A stretch of DNA of 64,000 nt from Azolla caroliniana (GCA_043228905.1 JBHGNT010000009.1:21080001-21144000), one strand, 5' to 3'. Numbered from the stretch's first letter, positions 51,618 to 64,000 are shown. Program-made: numbers and translations. The notes: a model not told the origin generated them from the sequence alone.

Positions 51618-52664
51618 TAACACGTTCGCGTTCACAAGTGGAAGGATTGCGCATTCCACTTGTAGAATCTTCTTAAAACGAAGCAAATACACCCTCTCTA
51701 CAAAAATTGGATGCACTAGTATCACATGTTCCTCAACTTGATGAGAATTTGCAAATATAAAAATACATGATAGATCTACGAGTGGAGATCTTTAGAAATC
51801 ATGCAAGTTTAGACATGTTGATAAGTTAATGTAGGCATTATAAAGTTCAACTATGGCTCAATATGTCACTACTGTGTGACAAGGGAAACACTAACTTAAA
51901 GACTTATATTAATTAGGTAAGTTTTACAAAAATATGAGGTGTACTTGTATCCATACTAATAAAATGAGATATAATTTATACTTTGACCCATACGTGCATG
52001 TACGTAATTGTGGAAAATGTAGGATAGTGCACATTAGGATAAGTGATTGGAATAACTAACTTATTAAAGTATTCAATACTTGTATTTAAAGTTGATCTAA
52101 TCTATTCCTCAGTTTGTTCATATGGGATCAAACCATATGTTTATAATTGTGGACAATGTAAGGCAGTGAACTTTAGGATAATGTCGTGGAAATAACAAAC
52201 CTATTAGGCTTTCATACTTGTATTTAAAATTGATCTACTCTATTGCTTAGGTGATTCACACAAGATCAAACTCCGAACGATAATGCAACTGGAACCATTA
52301 TCAACACACTACACAATCTAAGCAGCAATGGAATAGAAACATAATAGTTTTAACAATAGAAGACAAAGATCCATAATAACAACATGGACAGTCATGGCAA
52401 CAATTATAGGGCCATGTTCTGTTAAGGTTAGCTTGGACCAAAATCAGCCTCCATTTAAACTAGTTCATGTTTCTCCATAAGTTTGGTACTCAGCTATGCA
52501 CGCGGTGAAACCAATGCCATAAATCTACTAATCAAGTATATAAAAATAAAATTGAAACATATAGAAGATTATAAAGAATAGAATCCACTAGGTAAAACCC
52601 AAAATTTGTATTAATAATGTGAAATCTTAACAAATCGTCAGTGTCATATTCTTCATAGAGTCTA

Positions 52665-55539
52665 TTACATAGCAATCAATTCATCAACGTCATTTTCTTC
52701 ATCATCTTGTGTAGAACTGTCTTCGGCTATACGTGCATTGGTTTCCCCTGTTAGCCGAGCCAACGAAATATCTTCTATAAGCTCATCATCAAGCTCTATT
52801 AGCTCCCCCGGTTCGCCGGCTAACGGAGGAATAGGCTCTCGCGAAGCAGGTTGAAACCTTTCTGTATTGGCGAGGTTCTTTGCACCGACCTCCTCATCCT
52901 GGTCTGGGCACTCCCACAAAGCCTTAATCCGCATATTAATAAATATAACTTGGTCCTCATCCTTCTCCAATGCAACTGTATTTCTAAACAGCTTCAATGC
53001 ACATGCTGACGTAGTTCCTGTGATGTAAGTAACAAGAAGATTTAGTTGTCAAACGAAAAAAAAGTGATTGGTTATCTCAAGATCGTTACCCTAGTTCGAG
53101 GAATACCTGTGCCAGAAAAGAGATCTAATATCCAGTCTCCTTCGACAGAAAACATCTCGATCAAGCGCATCATAAGTCGTTGAGGTTTTTGGTATGGGTT
53201 GACAAGTCCCCGTTCTGTCGTGGTGACATCTCACAATTTCCGTGTCACTGCTGGATATACCAACAGATTTGAACCTCCCACTTCATTAGAATGCTCTTTG
53301 ATTCTCTGTTTCTTAATGTCATCGAAGTAGCCAACCGTTATGTATGCAATGGCATTAACGAACCGAAAAGTTGGCACTCTATTTGCATTGGTCTTGATCC
53401 TATAAAAAATAATTCATCGAGTTAAGAATAGATTCAACAACCTTAAGAAATGCAATATAGTGAAAGACACCTATAAATAATCCTTACCATGCAAGGTTCT
53501 CGATGCCATGGCAACGAGATCTCAAAGCTTGAGCTACCGAGTACCCTTGGTCCATACTATGAAAGACAACTATTCGCCACAAGGATGTGGTCGTTAGCTC
53601 AGCGAAATCCTTGACCATCTTCTCCAATTGTTTAAACCTAAACGGTTCATCGTCGTATGATGACCCAACCAGGTTGTGAGCCCAACATAAATTTTGCACT
53701 CGGCATACTTGAAGAAGAAAGTGGTTGGATGTTCTCTCACAAGTTGCCGACGTGCCTCTGCTGAATGCGATCCACCAATGACAAAATAATTATATTGATC
53801 ATGCTTTTTAATATCAAAATCTTCAATGGTTTCACATTCTTCAGGATCTACCATAACAATAAAAGGCACCACAGTGGCATGAGGATTAATTTTCATTTTT
53901 TTCTTGAGATTTTGAACATGCATGCGGTGAGGCTCTCTAATCTCAAGTGGTCTTCGACCTGTTTTTTCATCAATAGGGGGCCGATGGATGTGTGTTACAG
54001 GCAAATTAAACACTTGCCCTTTCCTGACCAGTTTCCGTTGCATTAACTCTCTCCTTATTTTATTCTGCTCGGATGACAAAACACCCGAGACCAGCTCAGC
54101 TCCTGTCGTCCCCTTATTATCCTCCTCTTCATTTTCACTTGTTGAATCCGTATCCGACATTTTCGTTGTCTTCTTCTTTGCTGGTCTTGACTGGACTTTG
54201 GATACCTTTTTTGTGGCCTTCAATGGGGAGGGCACTTCATCTCTTAGAGTTACATTGCCTTGTATATAAGGCCTCAAGGTAACAATAAGGTTTTGTGAAC
54301 TATCAAGTGCTTTTTTGAACGCTTCTGGCCCGCAAGATTCCTTTACTAAAAGGTCTTCTGAAAGGAACACTTTACGTACCCCCTTGGAGCACTCTATCAT
54401 TACCAGTATGTTGGCCGAATCTGCATCTTCGTAGTCAAATCGTAGAATACGGCCATACATAAATGGGGTTTCCTTTCCAAGCTGCCCCTCACCCTTCTTT
54501 TTTGCTGTATACAATACAACTTTTTTCTTTGAGTCGACATATTGCATACACCATTCCTTGTCCGTTAGATCTCGGTCAGGAAGGTCTTCACCTCCAGTAG
54601 CGGCGACAAGTTTCTTTTGGCTAACATCACTATGTGGCTGAGATTTTGTCTCTTCGTTAAGGAGAAGCTTTTTTCCTCTCTTCATGGTCTCAGGAGCTAC
54701 CTTGGTCTGGGCTTCGATTGGAGAACCTTGTATACGAAGCTTTATTTTCTTCATGGGTCGGTCCGACAGGTTCTCAAACGACCTATTTAAGAAAGTATAT
54801 GCAAAAACATAAGTTAGGTAGTCACGTAGATTAAGGTTGTATATTAACATGAAGAACAGTTCCCAGTAGCAGTCCTATATTCAAAAGTCTATTATAGGCA
54901 GGGCTATTCAACCTAGAAAATATATATCGTAATAAGTAAACAGGGTTATATATTCTTTTAAATAGTAGGTATGACTTATGTAGATTCCAAACCTATATTG
55001 AGGAGAATTTGCTATCGTAAAGGCAGTTTGTGGATCATTTTCTACTATTTTAAGCTAAAGTAGGTCATAAAACACCTATAATTAGAATTGGTTTTTTTTT
55101 TAAAGTAAGGAAAGTCAACATAAAAAAGACTGATTTTGCCAGACAATTTGATATCTTTTCCACCCCATAATTATTTGTTACCCCAAAAACACAATTTTTC
55201 TCTCTCAAAGCCTTCTTATATACAGGAACTCGATACGGCGTATCGAGTTCCTGTTTAAAATTCAAACTTTAAACACGAACTCGATACGGCGTATCGAGTT
55301 CATGTTTAAAGTGTAGGTTTTAAACAGGAACTCGATACACCGTATCGAGGTCCTGTATAAAAAGCAAAAACAAATTATGAACTCGATACGCCGTATCGAG
55401 TTCATGTATAAAGTTTGTATTGTATACATGAACTCGATACGGCGTATCGAATTCTTGAGAAACGAAACATATTTACAAAAATGTCCACAGTGTCAGAGGC
55501 CTACCTGGAGTCCTCGCGCTCGATTCTCTTTGAAGACAT
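52665..55539 (-). pseudogene. ParB/Srx-like domain + N6/N4 (beta-class) DNA methyltransferase fusion gene; exons 55539-55505, 54782-53488 (frame break ~53670), 53399-53107, 53017-52665
   Basis: Three GT-AG introns splice in frame. ParB-like IREPHRMHVQNLKKKM..VPFIVMV..YFVIGGSHSAEA. MTase ENLAW|IK and NPYQKPQRLMMRLIEMFSVEGDWILDLFSGT|GTTSACALKLFRNTVALEKD. Catalytic motif IV is missing and there is an in-frame TGA at 53231-53233. Confidence 0.8.
55219..55455. repeat. Array of five palindromes GAACTCGATAC-NNN-GTATCGAGTTC at exact 51-bp period
   Basis: Cores start at 55226, 55277, 55328, 55379, 55430. Arms extend to ~43 bp (TTTAAACAG...CTGTTTAAA) with variable linkers. Confidence 0.93.
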
Positions 55540-62109: not shown

Positions 62110-64000
62110 TAACTAATATACAATGACGATTCCTCCTCATCATCCTCGGATGTACCAATCAGTGCATTATCTTCGTCATAAAGCAAATGGTTTGACTCTA
62201 GATTATATGTAGCAGATCTCGTTTGCCTTTGACTCGAGCCACCTTGTAGACCTGGTAATTTTTCTTTTATTATATCTATTGTTGACTTAATCGTCCGGCT
62301 TTTGTAAGTGTGAAGTCGTACACGATGATATCCACATCAGAGATATCAAGGGTCGAGGTGTTACGAATGTTTCGCTTCCTCTTCCTACCTCCCCTTCTTG
62401 TTTGGCATTCAATCATCTCCAATGTATACTTACCTGTAAAAGCATTTGCACTTCTAGTGTTGTACCAATGAACATTTATAGACTTGATCGTGTTTTCTAT
62501 TTCATGCATTAGCACTTCTAGAATTTTACCAACCCAAAATTGGTGGCCATGTGAGTTCTCATCAGCCGGCGTTGCAATCAACATCCCCGCGGTGAGCTCT
62601 TGCAAATTTCCTTGCCATCTAGCTTCGGCTGCTTTGGTCATCCTTGGTCCCACATAAATGTCTCTTTGTTGTGGATGGACCAAGCTGTCATTAATCGCAT
62701 TTACTAGTCGCTCCGGACTTCTATTTACGCGATCATGTTGCAGCGACCATGTGAATGGCGTTTCCAAATTCCAATTATCAACAGATACACAATTGTCTAT
62801 AATTTCTTTCTGATCACTATAAAATACATCCCACCATGACGTGTCTTGTTGTGCGGCATATTTCTTGGCGGCCTCAATATGCTTTCTTTTTTCTTCTAAG
62901 GCTTGGAGCCATGACCGTTTTTGTTCTGATACCAAGTCGCTCTGCAACTGTCCTTTCTTCTCAATTGGCATTTGCTTAGCTCCATGGACAATTGTACTCG
63001 GCATACAAAGTAATAATTGGCAACCACCTTCAGGTTCCCATGTTGTAGAAGATGAATATTGTTTAGCATACAAAAGTGTAGAACCACTTATTCCATTTTT
63101 CTTTATCAAAAAAATGTGATTGAAACTTATATTGTTTAACTGAGCAAGCACTTTAACATTCCCACCACCCCCATCTAATATATATCTCTTAAAGTCATAT
63201 ACCTCCTTCAAGTGTAACACTTTTGGGCGTGGTGTATATGCATCACAAATGACATCAAATAGTTTAGGTAAAGTGAAAGCATCATGCCGAGACAACTGTC
63301 TGGAGAATGTGCTAAACATCTGATCTATATGGTCATGTGTGTGGCCAACCAAAAGGAAATTGACTTTCACTTTCCTAAACAATTCTAGGTTGACCAACAT
63401 ACTTAGATAGCCAAATACAGTTGAATTTTTGTTCTCTCTAGCAGTATTGTCCAATTGAATGTATAGAACAGGGGGGAAAGGTTGTCCCCAAGACATCAAA
63501 ACTCGGTGAATCACTGTAACTGTTAGGTTAGGGTCATTGTGAACATTGGGGTAAGTAATGAAGACGTGAGGTCGAACAGACCTATTATAAGCCAAGCATC
63601 CCACCAAGTGCATTTGAACAAGGCACTCATCATTGACATCTTTGGGGAGCCTCCGCATATGCGGCAAGCATGTCTTCTTCTGGTCCATGCCATCTATCAT
63701 TAAGCACATGTATTGTTCAGGCCTCTTCAAACACTTCTCTCTATGATGCATCGCCTTCCTTCGTTCTAAGGATTGTGCCTCACGATGCTCTTGTAGTAAC
63801 TTCTTACTCGTATCCTTTTCCATTGATGTCTTTGCACCTTTAGCCAAACTTTTAAGATTTGCACAAATGGAGCAATACCCCATACGTACTTTACGAGGAA
63901 TAATAACATTTGAAAACCGAGCTCTCCATAATCTTGTGAATTGGCTATAGGTGATAGACTTATTACGTGAGCGTAGCATTTCAGATCGATAGACATCATA
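62110..64000 (-). CDS. DDD-type DNA transposase, Sola-like (5' end outside the window; C-terminal tail frameshifted at ~62280 and cut by the copia)
   Basis: CSIC motif and acidic triad motifs IDGMDQ, LYIQLDNTARENKN, FLLVGHTHDHIDQMFS. Frame is open to the window edge. Removing the copia restores ...SSLYISYSSDSP* ending at ~56620. Confidence 0.75.

What the first reader, a model, noticed from the sequence alone, without database searches (positions are those of the whole stretch)
51618..64000. DNA transposon apparently carrying its own intron-containing ParB + N6/N4 DNA methyltransferase gene
Seen: splicing three GT-AG introns gives a protein with a ParB/Srx-like domain (..YFVIGGSHSAEA..) followed by the C-terminal half of a beta-class amino-methyltransferase (NPYQKP..LI..FS.EGD.ILDLFSGT|GTT..A..L.RN....EKD). 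The SAM-binding FxGxG motif is split by an intron, so the ORF track hides it. It lies in tandem with a Sola-like transposase, and both genes are followed by the same 37-bp end-like motif. Established: ParB-N + N6_N4_Mtase fusions are typical of phages and plasmids; prokaryote-type amino-MTases are rare in eukaryotes (e.g. bdelloid N4CMT, Marchantia DN4MT1). Inference: a plant DNA-transposon family that encodes a 6mA/4mC writer, perhaps for self-marking, regulating transposition or evading host silencing. This copy is inactive (frame break and missing motif IV at ~53670, TGA at 53231), so 4mC versus 6mA cannot be read here.
Basis: partly seen in the sequence, partly recalled or inferred. Interest (0 to 1): 0.93.

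Follow-up and report, generated by a model that had tools for sequence, protein, structure and literature searches.

The report
Plant transposon carrying its own methylase
This is a broken copy of a many-copy plant (likely fern) jumping gene whose relatives keep a bacterial-style DNA-binding and DNA-methylating gene with a row of evenly phased palindromes in its predicted first intron, so the element likely marks its own DNA, a design already noted in algae but untested anywhere.

Summary
The gene is real, the layout was misread. The window holds a dead ParB-fold + beta-class amino-methyltransferase gene (1.1-kb deletion, CGA>TGA stop). In 80 related loci the catalytic motif is DIPY (45 of 49 that cover it), the frame is open in 26 of 39 full models, and dN/dS is about 0.04. 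Intact elements are ~7.6-kb DUF7869 (Sola-like) transposons with 37-bp inverted ends; transposase and methylase genes are divergent (12 of 14 loci with both; none as in the window). The 'tandem' here is a second element inserted backwards into the first, itself hit by a Copia. Likely mechanism: the ParB/helix-turn-helix part binds the array and the enzyme writes 6mA on the element; not shown (no expression or methylation data). The ParB domain lacks the CTP-binding arginine patch. The same gene pair is in print for a brown alga (Sola1-1_Ec32); I found no land-plant report. This scan has already noted the family about 30 times in this genome.

The parts
47562..51618 (-). Gypsy LTR retrotransposon pol region, interrupted at 51618|51619 by element 1
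   Evidence: ORFs; loose ends behind 51618 in contigs of runs X1, X8, X9 continue as the uninterrupted retroelement
51619..51655 (+). 37-bp terminal inverted repeat of element 1, methylase-side end (starts AACACG)
   Evidence: same sequence and same inner continuation at the methylase-side end of L001, L008, L009, L012-L015, L018, L019
52665..53017 (-). last exon (6 of 6) of the ParB-methyltransferase gene: second half of motif I (GTT), EKD, acidic tail, stop
   Evidence: same splice site in all 26 open models
53107..53399 (-). exon 5: NPYQKP (motif X region) and DLFSGT; premature TGA at 53233-53231
   Evidence: PF01555 E=3.8e-8; CGA in L001
53488..53672 (-). remainder of exon 4, beginning three codons after the deleted DIPY motif
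53672..53673 (.). junction of a ~1.1-kb deletion (end of exon 2, exon 3, two introns, start of exon 4 with motif IV)
   Evidence: blastn to L001: 53673=1601, 53666=2713; loose ends on both sides
53673..54782 (-). exon 2 (truncated): N-terminal beta domain (weakly PH/SANTA-like), linker, ParB/Srx-fold domain with GGSHSAEA
54783..55504 (-). predicted intron 1
   Evidence: GT-AG, in frame; an 11-codon first exon with the same phase is found upstream of the array in 9 of 18 loci checked
55216..55470 (.). array of five palindromes (AACTCGATAC-N3-GTATCGAGTT type), 51-bp period, inside intron 1
55505..55539 (-). predicted exon 1 (ATG at 55539, 11 codons plus two bases)
55540..56261 (.). upstream / intergenic region of element 1, cut at 56261 by element 2
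   Evidence: 60% identity over about 790 bases to L046, which runs on without an end motif; loose ends behind 56261
56262..56298 (+). 37-bp terminal inverted repeat of element 2, transposase-side end
   Evidence: same inner continuation as L006
56643..62109 (+). young Copia retrotransposon inserted in the last codons of the transposase gene; LTRs 633 bp, 2 differences
62110..64000 (-). 3' part of the DUF7869 (Sola-like) transposase of element 2; motifs IDGMD, IQLDN, GHTHDHIDQ present; frameshift near 62280-62290

Best explanation
This is a dead, nested copy of a many-copy cut-and-paste transposon family whose intact members carry, opposite the transposase, a conserved gene for a predicted ParB-fold DNA-binding protein fused to a beta-class amino-methyltransferase, which likely binds the phased palindromes in its own predicted first intron and likely writes N6-methyladenine on the element. 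Shown: the two-gene layout, inverted ends, open frames, DIPY and FSGTG motifs, purifying selection, the array and its phasing, and the nesting in this window. Inferred: a dimer binds each 23-bp palindrome through the helical domain after the ParB fold; sites spaced by whole helical turns put several dimers on one face of the DNA; this concentrates the methylase on the region between the two divergent genes. The likely pay-off is to keep that control region, in all family copies that have an array, usable against host CG methylation and silencing. The binding is probably not a CTP-gated sliding clamp, because the arginine patch is missing.
For: Divergent transposase in 12 of 14 loci with a transposase hit; whole element with 37-bp inverted repeats in L023; pairwise identities of the two genes correlate over 12 loci (Spearman 0.54, permutation p=0.0008; kin are not independent). 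DIPY in 45 of 49 loci; 26 of 39 five-exon models open with all four donors at the expected GT; median dN/dS 0.038 for the methylase (9 unsaturated pairs of 231) and 0.033 for ParB (7 pairs) against 0.485 for the tail. Foldseek: ParB/Noc best hits at E 7e-6 over ~290 columns for P0002, CcrM, M1.HpyAVI, M.BceJIV (N6-adenine, beta class) and METTL3 for the full-length homologue P0107. Palindrome core: 193 hits in 38,199 bases upstream of exon 2 against 15 in 296,132 bases elsewhere; 101 spacings in 17 arrays cluster at 31-32, 40-41, 50-52, 63, 72 (R=0.79 at period 10.2-10.5; distinct values only, p=0.0001); the three central bases vary freely while both arms are fixed. The same pairing and the same hypothesis are in PMC12477816; inverted-repeat arrays next to a ParB-like gene in red-algal Plavaka elements.
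Against: No methylation, binding or activity data. No spliced transcript seen. D-type motif IV favours but does not prove N6-adenine (from memory, M.BamHI has DPPF and makes 4mC). The folded methylase is a homologue at about 30% identity with DFPY, not the fern protein, and its C-terminal half is low-confidence (pLDDT under 50 over much of 635-789). The GERRxR arginine patch needed for CTP binding is replaced by GSHSAE-type motifs in every homologue seen. 3 of the 30 sequences with 600 or more bases upstream had no core hit in that window (L009, L059, L077). Many loci are high-coverage, consensus-like contigs, so open frames describe families, not single copies.
Confidence: 0.5

Rival explanations
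1. Same binding, but the mark is a brake or timer: the protein acts like KorB, repressing or tuning the divergent promoters, and methylation of the control region or ends limits transposition to the hemimethylated window after replication (as Dam does for IS10/IS50, recalled).
For: Array lies between the two divergent genes, within about 1 kb of both starts; KorB is among the structural matches (Z 9.3); no CTP arginine patch.
Against: No expression data; the array is downstream of exon 1 rather than over a mapped promoter; the palindrome core is not in the terminal repeats (15 hits outside the upstream window in 296 kb).
Confidence: 0.22
2. The enzyme writes N4-methylcytosine on the CG of the TCGA arms (or nearby), directly blocking host 5mC at those CGs.
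For: Each arm holds a nearly invariant CG (C 120/121, G 115/121; C 121/121, G 117/121) and the array has CpG o/e 2.43 against 0.61 in exon 2; the bdelloid N4CMT structure is among the matches (Z 8.2).
Against: Both characterised eukaryotic 4mC enzymes have SPPY, this family has DIPY/DFPY; CG conservation is also expected of any binding site and is inflated by my search pattern.
Confidence: 0.13
3. The array and the methylase are uncoupled: the palindromes are bound by the transposase or form intronic RNA hairpins, and the fusion protein acts elsewhere (for example on element ends, on RNA, or on host chromatin).
For: The array folds as hairpins and scores weakly against many miRNA models; METTL3/MTA1 are structural neighbours; the N-terminal domain weakly resembles PH/SANTA folds (Z 6.1).
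Against: All 21 Rfam matches are below their gathering scores; spacing in whole DNA helical turns is not expected of RNA hairpins; the array travels with the ParB gene, not with the ends where a transposase binds.
Confidence: 0.12
4. A captured or domesticated host gene that merely lies among transposons, or a neutral passenger.
For: It has introns and homologues annotated as plant genes.
Against: Bounded by transposon inverted repeats, divergent from a transposase, present as many diverged subfamilies, thousands of variant contigs per run on this stretch, strong purifying selection between subfamilies.
Confidence: 0.03

Closest known systems
Sola1-1_Ec32 of Ectocarpus (PMC12477816; passages and supplementary table rows read)
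   Same: Sola-type transposase with an accessory gene on the opposite strand encoding a ParB-like domain plus an N4C/N6A methyltransferase domain; termini begin AAC (AACCG there, AACAC here); same proposed self-binding and self-modifying role.
   Different: 21.5 kb with 282-bp repeats against about 7.6 kb with 37-bp repeats; 1104 aa against about 970 aa; no palindrome array in the passages I read; land plant rather than brown alga. Sequence homology of the two accessory proteins was not tested: the Ectocarpus protein was not among the hits I could name, and I did not read its sequence files.
Plavaka (EnSpm) elements of Bostrychia, PAG2 and PAG3 (bioRxiv 10.1101/2025.02.11.637652; passages read; supplements closed)
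   Same: Transposon accessory genes with PF01555 methylase and ParB-like domains; tandem inverted-repeat arrays next to the ParB gene; same hypothesis.
   Different: Different transposase superfamily; ParB is fused to a 2OG oxygenase and the methylase to a SET domain, in separate genes.
ParB-linked eukaryotic N6A methyltransferases of Iyer et al. (PMC4738411; passages read)
   Same: Prokaryote-derived amino-methyltransferases in eukaryotes, some fused to ParB-type domains, from phage ParB-terminase loci.
   Different: The ParB-HTH fusions there are group-2 (chlorophyte-type Dam) in chlorophytes and chytrids; the passages say land plants have few N6A methyltransferases and do not mention this beta-class family.
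Marchantia DN4MT1 (bioRxiv 10.1101/2021.02.12.428880) and bdelloid N4CMT (PMC8885841, PMC10406627); passages read
   Same: Beta-class amino-methyltransferases of bacterial origin working in eukaryotic nuclei.
   Different: Host genes, SPPY motif, 4mC; N4CMT silences transposons through a chromodomain, DN4MT1 has no extra domain. This one is transposon-borne, DIPY, ParB-fused.
Bacterial ParB/Noc/KorB with parS/NBS/OB palindromes
   Same: Fold of the N-terminal and following helical region; arrays of palindromic sites.
   Different: No GERRxR patch, no ParA partner seen in the element, fused to a methylase.

Membership tests
beta-class amino-methyltransferase (PF01555) | Pfam N6_N4_Mtase match above cut-off | tested here: met
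   34 bits vs 26.7 for window exon 5; L001 exon 5 and P0107 likewise
beta-class amino-methyltransferase (PF01555) | catalytic motif IV (D/N/S-P-P-Y/F type) N-terminal to SAM-binding motif I | tested here: met
   DIPY at 676, DLFSGTGTT at 836 of the L001 model; DIPY in 45 of 49 loci. Deleted in the window copy.
beta-class amino-methyltransferase (PF01555) | methyl transfer to A-N6 or C-N4 of DNA | not testable with these tools
   needs an assay or kinetic long-read data
ParB CTPase clamp | ParB/Srx fold followed by a helical DNA-binding domain | tested here: met
   Foldseek E 7e-6 to ParB and Noc over ~290 columns; VIA Z 10.6 PadC, 9.3 KorB; Z 10.9, rmsd 2.2 to ParB for P0107. No Pfam ParB hit.
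ParB CTPase clamp | GERRxR arginine patch for CTP binding | tested here: not met
   no arginine after the histidine in any GGxH-type motif among 223 stored proteins; requirement; register assigned by motif position, no residue-level structural alignment was printed
ParB CTPase clamp | binding to a palindromic cognate site | not testable with these tools
   candidate site identified, binding not testable
Sola superfamily (Sola1) | terminal inverted repeats | tested here: met
   37 bp, 97% complementary, 7594-bp element L023; both ends also in L059
Sola superfamily (Sola1) | transposase homologous to Sola1 transposases with a DDD triad | tested here: inconclusive
   DUF7869 match and three conserved Asp motifs; no Sola profile could be searched, the link DUF7869-Sola is recalled, and a paper search for DUF7869 gave 0
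Sola superfamily (Sola1) | 4-bp target-site duplication | tested here: inconclusive
   flanks do not match in 2 of 2 contigs with both ends (L023, L059), but short-read contigs of repeats can join flanks of different copies; far ends of both window elements lie outside the window
Sola1-1_Ec32-type element (Sola + ParB-methylase accessory gene) | accessory gene on the strand opposite the transposase, with ParB-like and N4C/N6A methylase domains | tested here: met
   12 of 14 loci; domains as above
Sola1-1_Ec32-type element (Sola + ParB-methylase accessory gene) | direct sequence homology to the Ectocarpus accessory protein | not tested
   sequence not available to the tools; not among named hits

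The most novel reading that the evidence does not exclude
A streptophyte-wide transposon lineage (Chara, liverwort, lycophyte, ferns) runs a self-contained 'read your own site, write your own mark' system: a CTP-independent ParB-fold reader on a helically phased 23-bp palindrome array that deposits 6mA on family copies and shields them from host 5mC silencing. It would be the first site-directed DNA adenine methylase of land plants and a transposon anti-silencing device that works by writing a foreign base mark.
Probability: 0.35. Interest if true: 0.85.

Novelty: new member of a known kind. Interest (0 to 1): 0.55.

Why it matters
Whether land plants have enzymatically written DNA 6mA, and what writes it, is disputed; and the algal papers propose self-modifying transposons without a test. 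This family supplies an enzyme under strong selection, a defined candidate site with a phasing rule, many natural subfamilies, and homologues in a laboratory fern (Ceratopteris), so the idea can be tested directly. It also predicts where to look for 6mA in existing long-read data. The concept itself is not new, and this copy is dead.

Tried and rejected
No whole genome is held for this window, so copy counts, far ends and target-site duplications could not be read. Search among longer proteins with exon 2: 0 of 3840 candidates (weak). Viral contigs: 32 pattern matches, none related. Phage records with P0107: 574 records match, the 15 listed only over the methylase part at 24-29% identity, none over 80% of the query, so no close phage donor was found. 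Sequence search of PDB with the profile: 0 hits. Atlas: ParB part gave a ParB_N cluster only at 0.90 with 11% of members; N-terminal domain nothing above 0.76. Expression: no RNA holder listed; laying two guessed-RNA runs, one run of unknown kind and one DNA run on L001 gave one 49-base match in a guessed-RNA run and no splice joint; this says nothing for or against expression. Rfam: 21 matches, all below gathering. Direct-repeat (Replitron- or Helitron-like) reading of the two 37-bp motifs: rejected, the motif is inverted in intact elements. One-element tandem layout: rejected. My first motif tally mis-picked a downstream match in 9 loci and was redone by alignment column; 3 of its 11 'broken' models had no stop at all within the stretch read, so 26 of 39 is a lower bound. 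Preference for inserting into its own family: 3 of 25 flanks lie in other family members, one of them by ascertainment; not shown. Paper searches for a land-plant report returned none that I saw describe one; the library lacks most subscription papers, reference 50 of PMC12477816 (a book chapter by its DOI) was not read, and unread supplements could list plant members.
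Full report
Observation. On the minus strand the window holds a gene with an ATG at 55539 and three GT-AG introns (55504-54783, 53487-53400, 53106-53018). The last intron splits DLFSGT|GTT. 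The piece 53075-53230 matches PF01555 at E=3.8e-8, above Pfam's cut-off; the ParB part has no Pfam hit; the frame 62279-64000 matches DUF7869 at E=6.7e-52. The 37-bp motif lies at 51618 and 56261 (95% identical; 2 matches, 0 in 100 shuffles). Between 56643 and 62109 sits a Copia element with 633-bp LTRs that differ at 2 sites. No whole genome is held.

What the window copy lacks. Contigs of four public runs laid on 51300-56700 gave 1,446 to 10,293 variant pieces each (depth is no copy number, but the stretch is plainly repetitive). Loose ends on both sides of 53672 continue the ParB domain on one side and read I-(V/A)-D-I-P-Y-G-F-R on the other. Against locus L001 the gap is about 1.1 kb and ends three codons after DIPY. 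The TGA at 53233-53231 is CGA in L001, a typical CpG decay. The transposase has a frameshift near 62285 and the Copia in its last codons. Both genes are dead here.

The family. A search with the ParB region found 52 proteins, among them a Ceratopteris richardii model at 72%. The HMMER search found 239 at E<=0.001; of 20 proteins looked up, named ones came from Chara braunii (6 clusters), Riccia sorocarpa, Diphasiastrum complanatum, two Adiantum species and Ceratopteris. The host is therefore likely a fern (inference from the nearest named homologue). A scan of metagenome contigs confirmed 163 stretches, of which the best 80 were kept. In L001 the gene has five exons after the first. Of 39 loci with all five, 26 gave an open model with every donor at the expected GT (lower bound). 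Motif IV is DIPY in 45 of 49 loci that cover it; Chara-type homologues have DFPY or DLPY. Among 22 distinct models, pairs with unsaturated dS gave median dN/dS 0.038 for the methylase (9 pairs), 0.033 for ParB (7), 0.059 for the middle (9), 0.20 for the N-terminal domain (7) and 0.49 for the tail (57) (pairs are not independent and many contigs are consensus-like).

Folds. A model of P0002 (exon-2 product, 90% identical to the window over the ParB region) matches ParB and Noc at E 7e-6 over about 290 columns and PadC, KorB and sulfiredoxin by VIA (Z 10.6, 9.3, 8.0); residues 62-177 resemble PH-type folds weakly (best SANTA domain, Z 6.1). A model of the full-length homologue P0107 matches CcrM, M1.HpyAVI, M.BceJIV and METTL3 and, by VIA, both ParB (Z 10.9) and beta-class methylases (Z about 10); its C-terminal half is low-confidence. 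The ParB motif is GGSHSAEA or similar, with no arginine after the histidine in any stored homologue, whereas GERRxR is required for CTP binding in bacterial ParB (bioRxiv 10.1101/2024.12.04.625172, passages). It has the ParB fold but fails that membership test.

Architecture. 14 of the 80 loci have a transposase hit; in 12 it lies upstream on the opposite strand; in the other two (L035, L037) the methylase-side end abuts part of another transposase. None has the window's layout. L023 is a whole 7,594-bp element with 37-bp inverted repeats. The window's motif at 51619 continues like methylase-side ends, that at 56262 like transposase-side ends. Contigs of all four runs continue past 56261 with other sequence (3, 2, 2 and 1 contigs), and L046 shows the same uninterrupted sequence (22 of 30 letters agree with the loose end by my eye count). 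So the window is Gypsy > element 1 > element 2 (inverted) > Copia. Identities of the two genes correlate across the 12 divergent loci (Spearman 0.54, p=0.0008), as expected of joint inheritance, though kin inflate this. A target-site duplication was not seen in the two contigs with both ends (inconclusive).

The array. Predicted intron 1 holds five palindromes at a 51-bp period. The core CGATRC-N3-GYATCG, which I derived from the window and two loci, has 193 hits in 38,199 bases upstream of exon 2 and 15 in 296,132 bases elsewhere. Over 121 units the consensus is AANTCGATRC-NNN-GYATCGANTT with free central bases; 101 spacings from 17 arrays fall at whole helical turns (R=0.79; using each distinct value once, p=0.0001). 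An 11-codon first exon with the same splice phase lies just upstream in 9 of 18 loci checked. Rfam gives only sub-threshold hairpin matches. Fixed arms, free spacer and helical phasing are what a dimeric DNA-binding protein would leave (inference).

Mechanism. Most likely (0.5) the fusion protein binds the array and methylates adenine locally, keeping the shared control region of family copies usable against host silencing. The target base is inferred from DIPY and from the N6-adenine structural neighbours; the two known eukaryotic 4mC writers have SPPY. Rivals: a repressor or replication timer (0.22), a 4mC writer that blocks 5mC at the TCGA arms (0.13), an uncoupled array (0.12), a host gene (0.03). 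Nothing here shows expression, binding or methylation.

What is known. PMC12477816 describes Sola1-1_Ec32 with an opposite-strand gene for a ParB-like plus N4C/N6A methylase protein and proposes self-binding and self-modification (passages; table row with AACCG termini and 4-bp duplication). The Bostrychia preprint describes ParB-like and PF01555 accessory genes with inverted-repeat arrays (passages). PMC4738411 (passages) does not list this family in the passages seen. Searches showed no land-plant description. Earlier notes of this scan report the same family about 30 times in this genome; they led me to PMC12477816 and to test the divergent layout, which I then checked independently. Verdict: a new land-plant member of a recently named but untested kind; real, well supported as a gene-and-site system, unproven as a methylation system; interest 0.55.

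Noticed in passing
window 56643-62109: Young Copia with LTRs ending TG...TA rather than TG...CA, flanked by TAAC (or ATAAC) on both sides; gag-pol runs in two overlapping frames (57309-59693, 59608-61482).
   Followed up: partly
window 3859-7900, 21400-21783, 41291-43117: Several intron-split frames that look like agglutinin/amaranthin-type lectin domains followed by an aerolysin-like region (resemblance recalled, not tested); a small tandem family interrupted by retroelements.
   Followed up: no
window 14320-21311: GC-rich (about 60%) Gypsy element with long open frames and near-identical LTR-like repeats at 14320 and 20874; CpG not depleted (o/e 1.18), unlike the Copia and the Sola genes (about 0.6).
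   Followed up: partly
window 30814-32852: PPR-repeat gene in two overlapping frames (possible frameshift or pseudogene).
   Followed up: no
L011:3280, L035:3960, L037:4041: Further cases of one family member inserted in another; 3 of 25 flanks tested. Whether this exceeds chance is open.
   Followed up: partly
P0002 residues 62-177 (window about 54570-54230): N-terminal beta domain, absent from the Chara-type homologues seen, with a weak structural match to the M18BP1 SANTA domain and PH folds; could be a chromatin-contacting module.
   Followed up: partly
L006, L023, L049, L057 transposase N-termini: Short repeats of the form F-S-(V/I/L)-(E/D)-E-Y at the start of the transposase frame; function unknown.
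   Followed up: no
window 51635-51666: The methylase-side end, but not the transposase-side end, has an inner inverted pair (ACAAGTGGAA ... TTCCACTTGT), so the two ends are asymmetric just inside the terminal repeat.
   Followed up: partly
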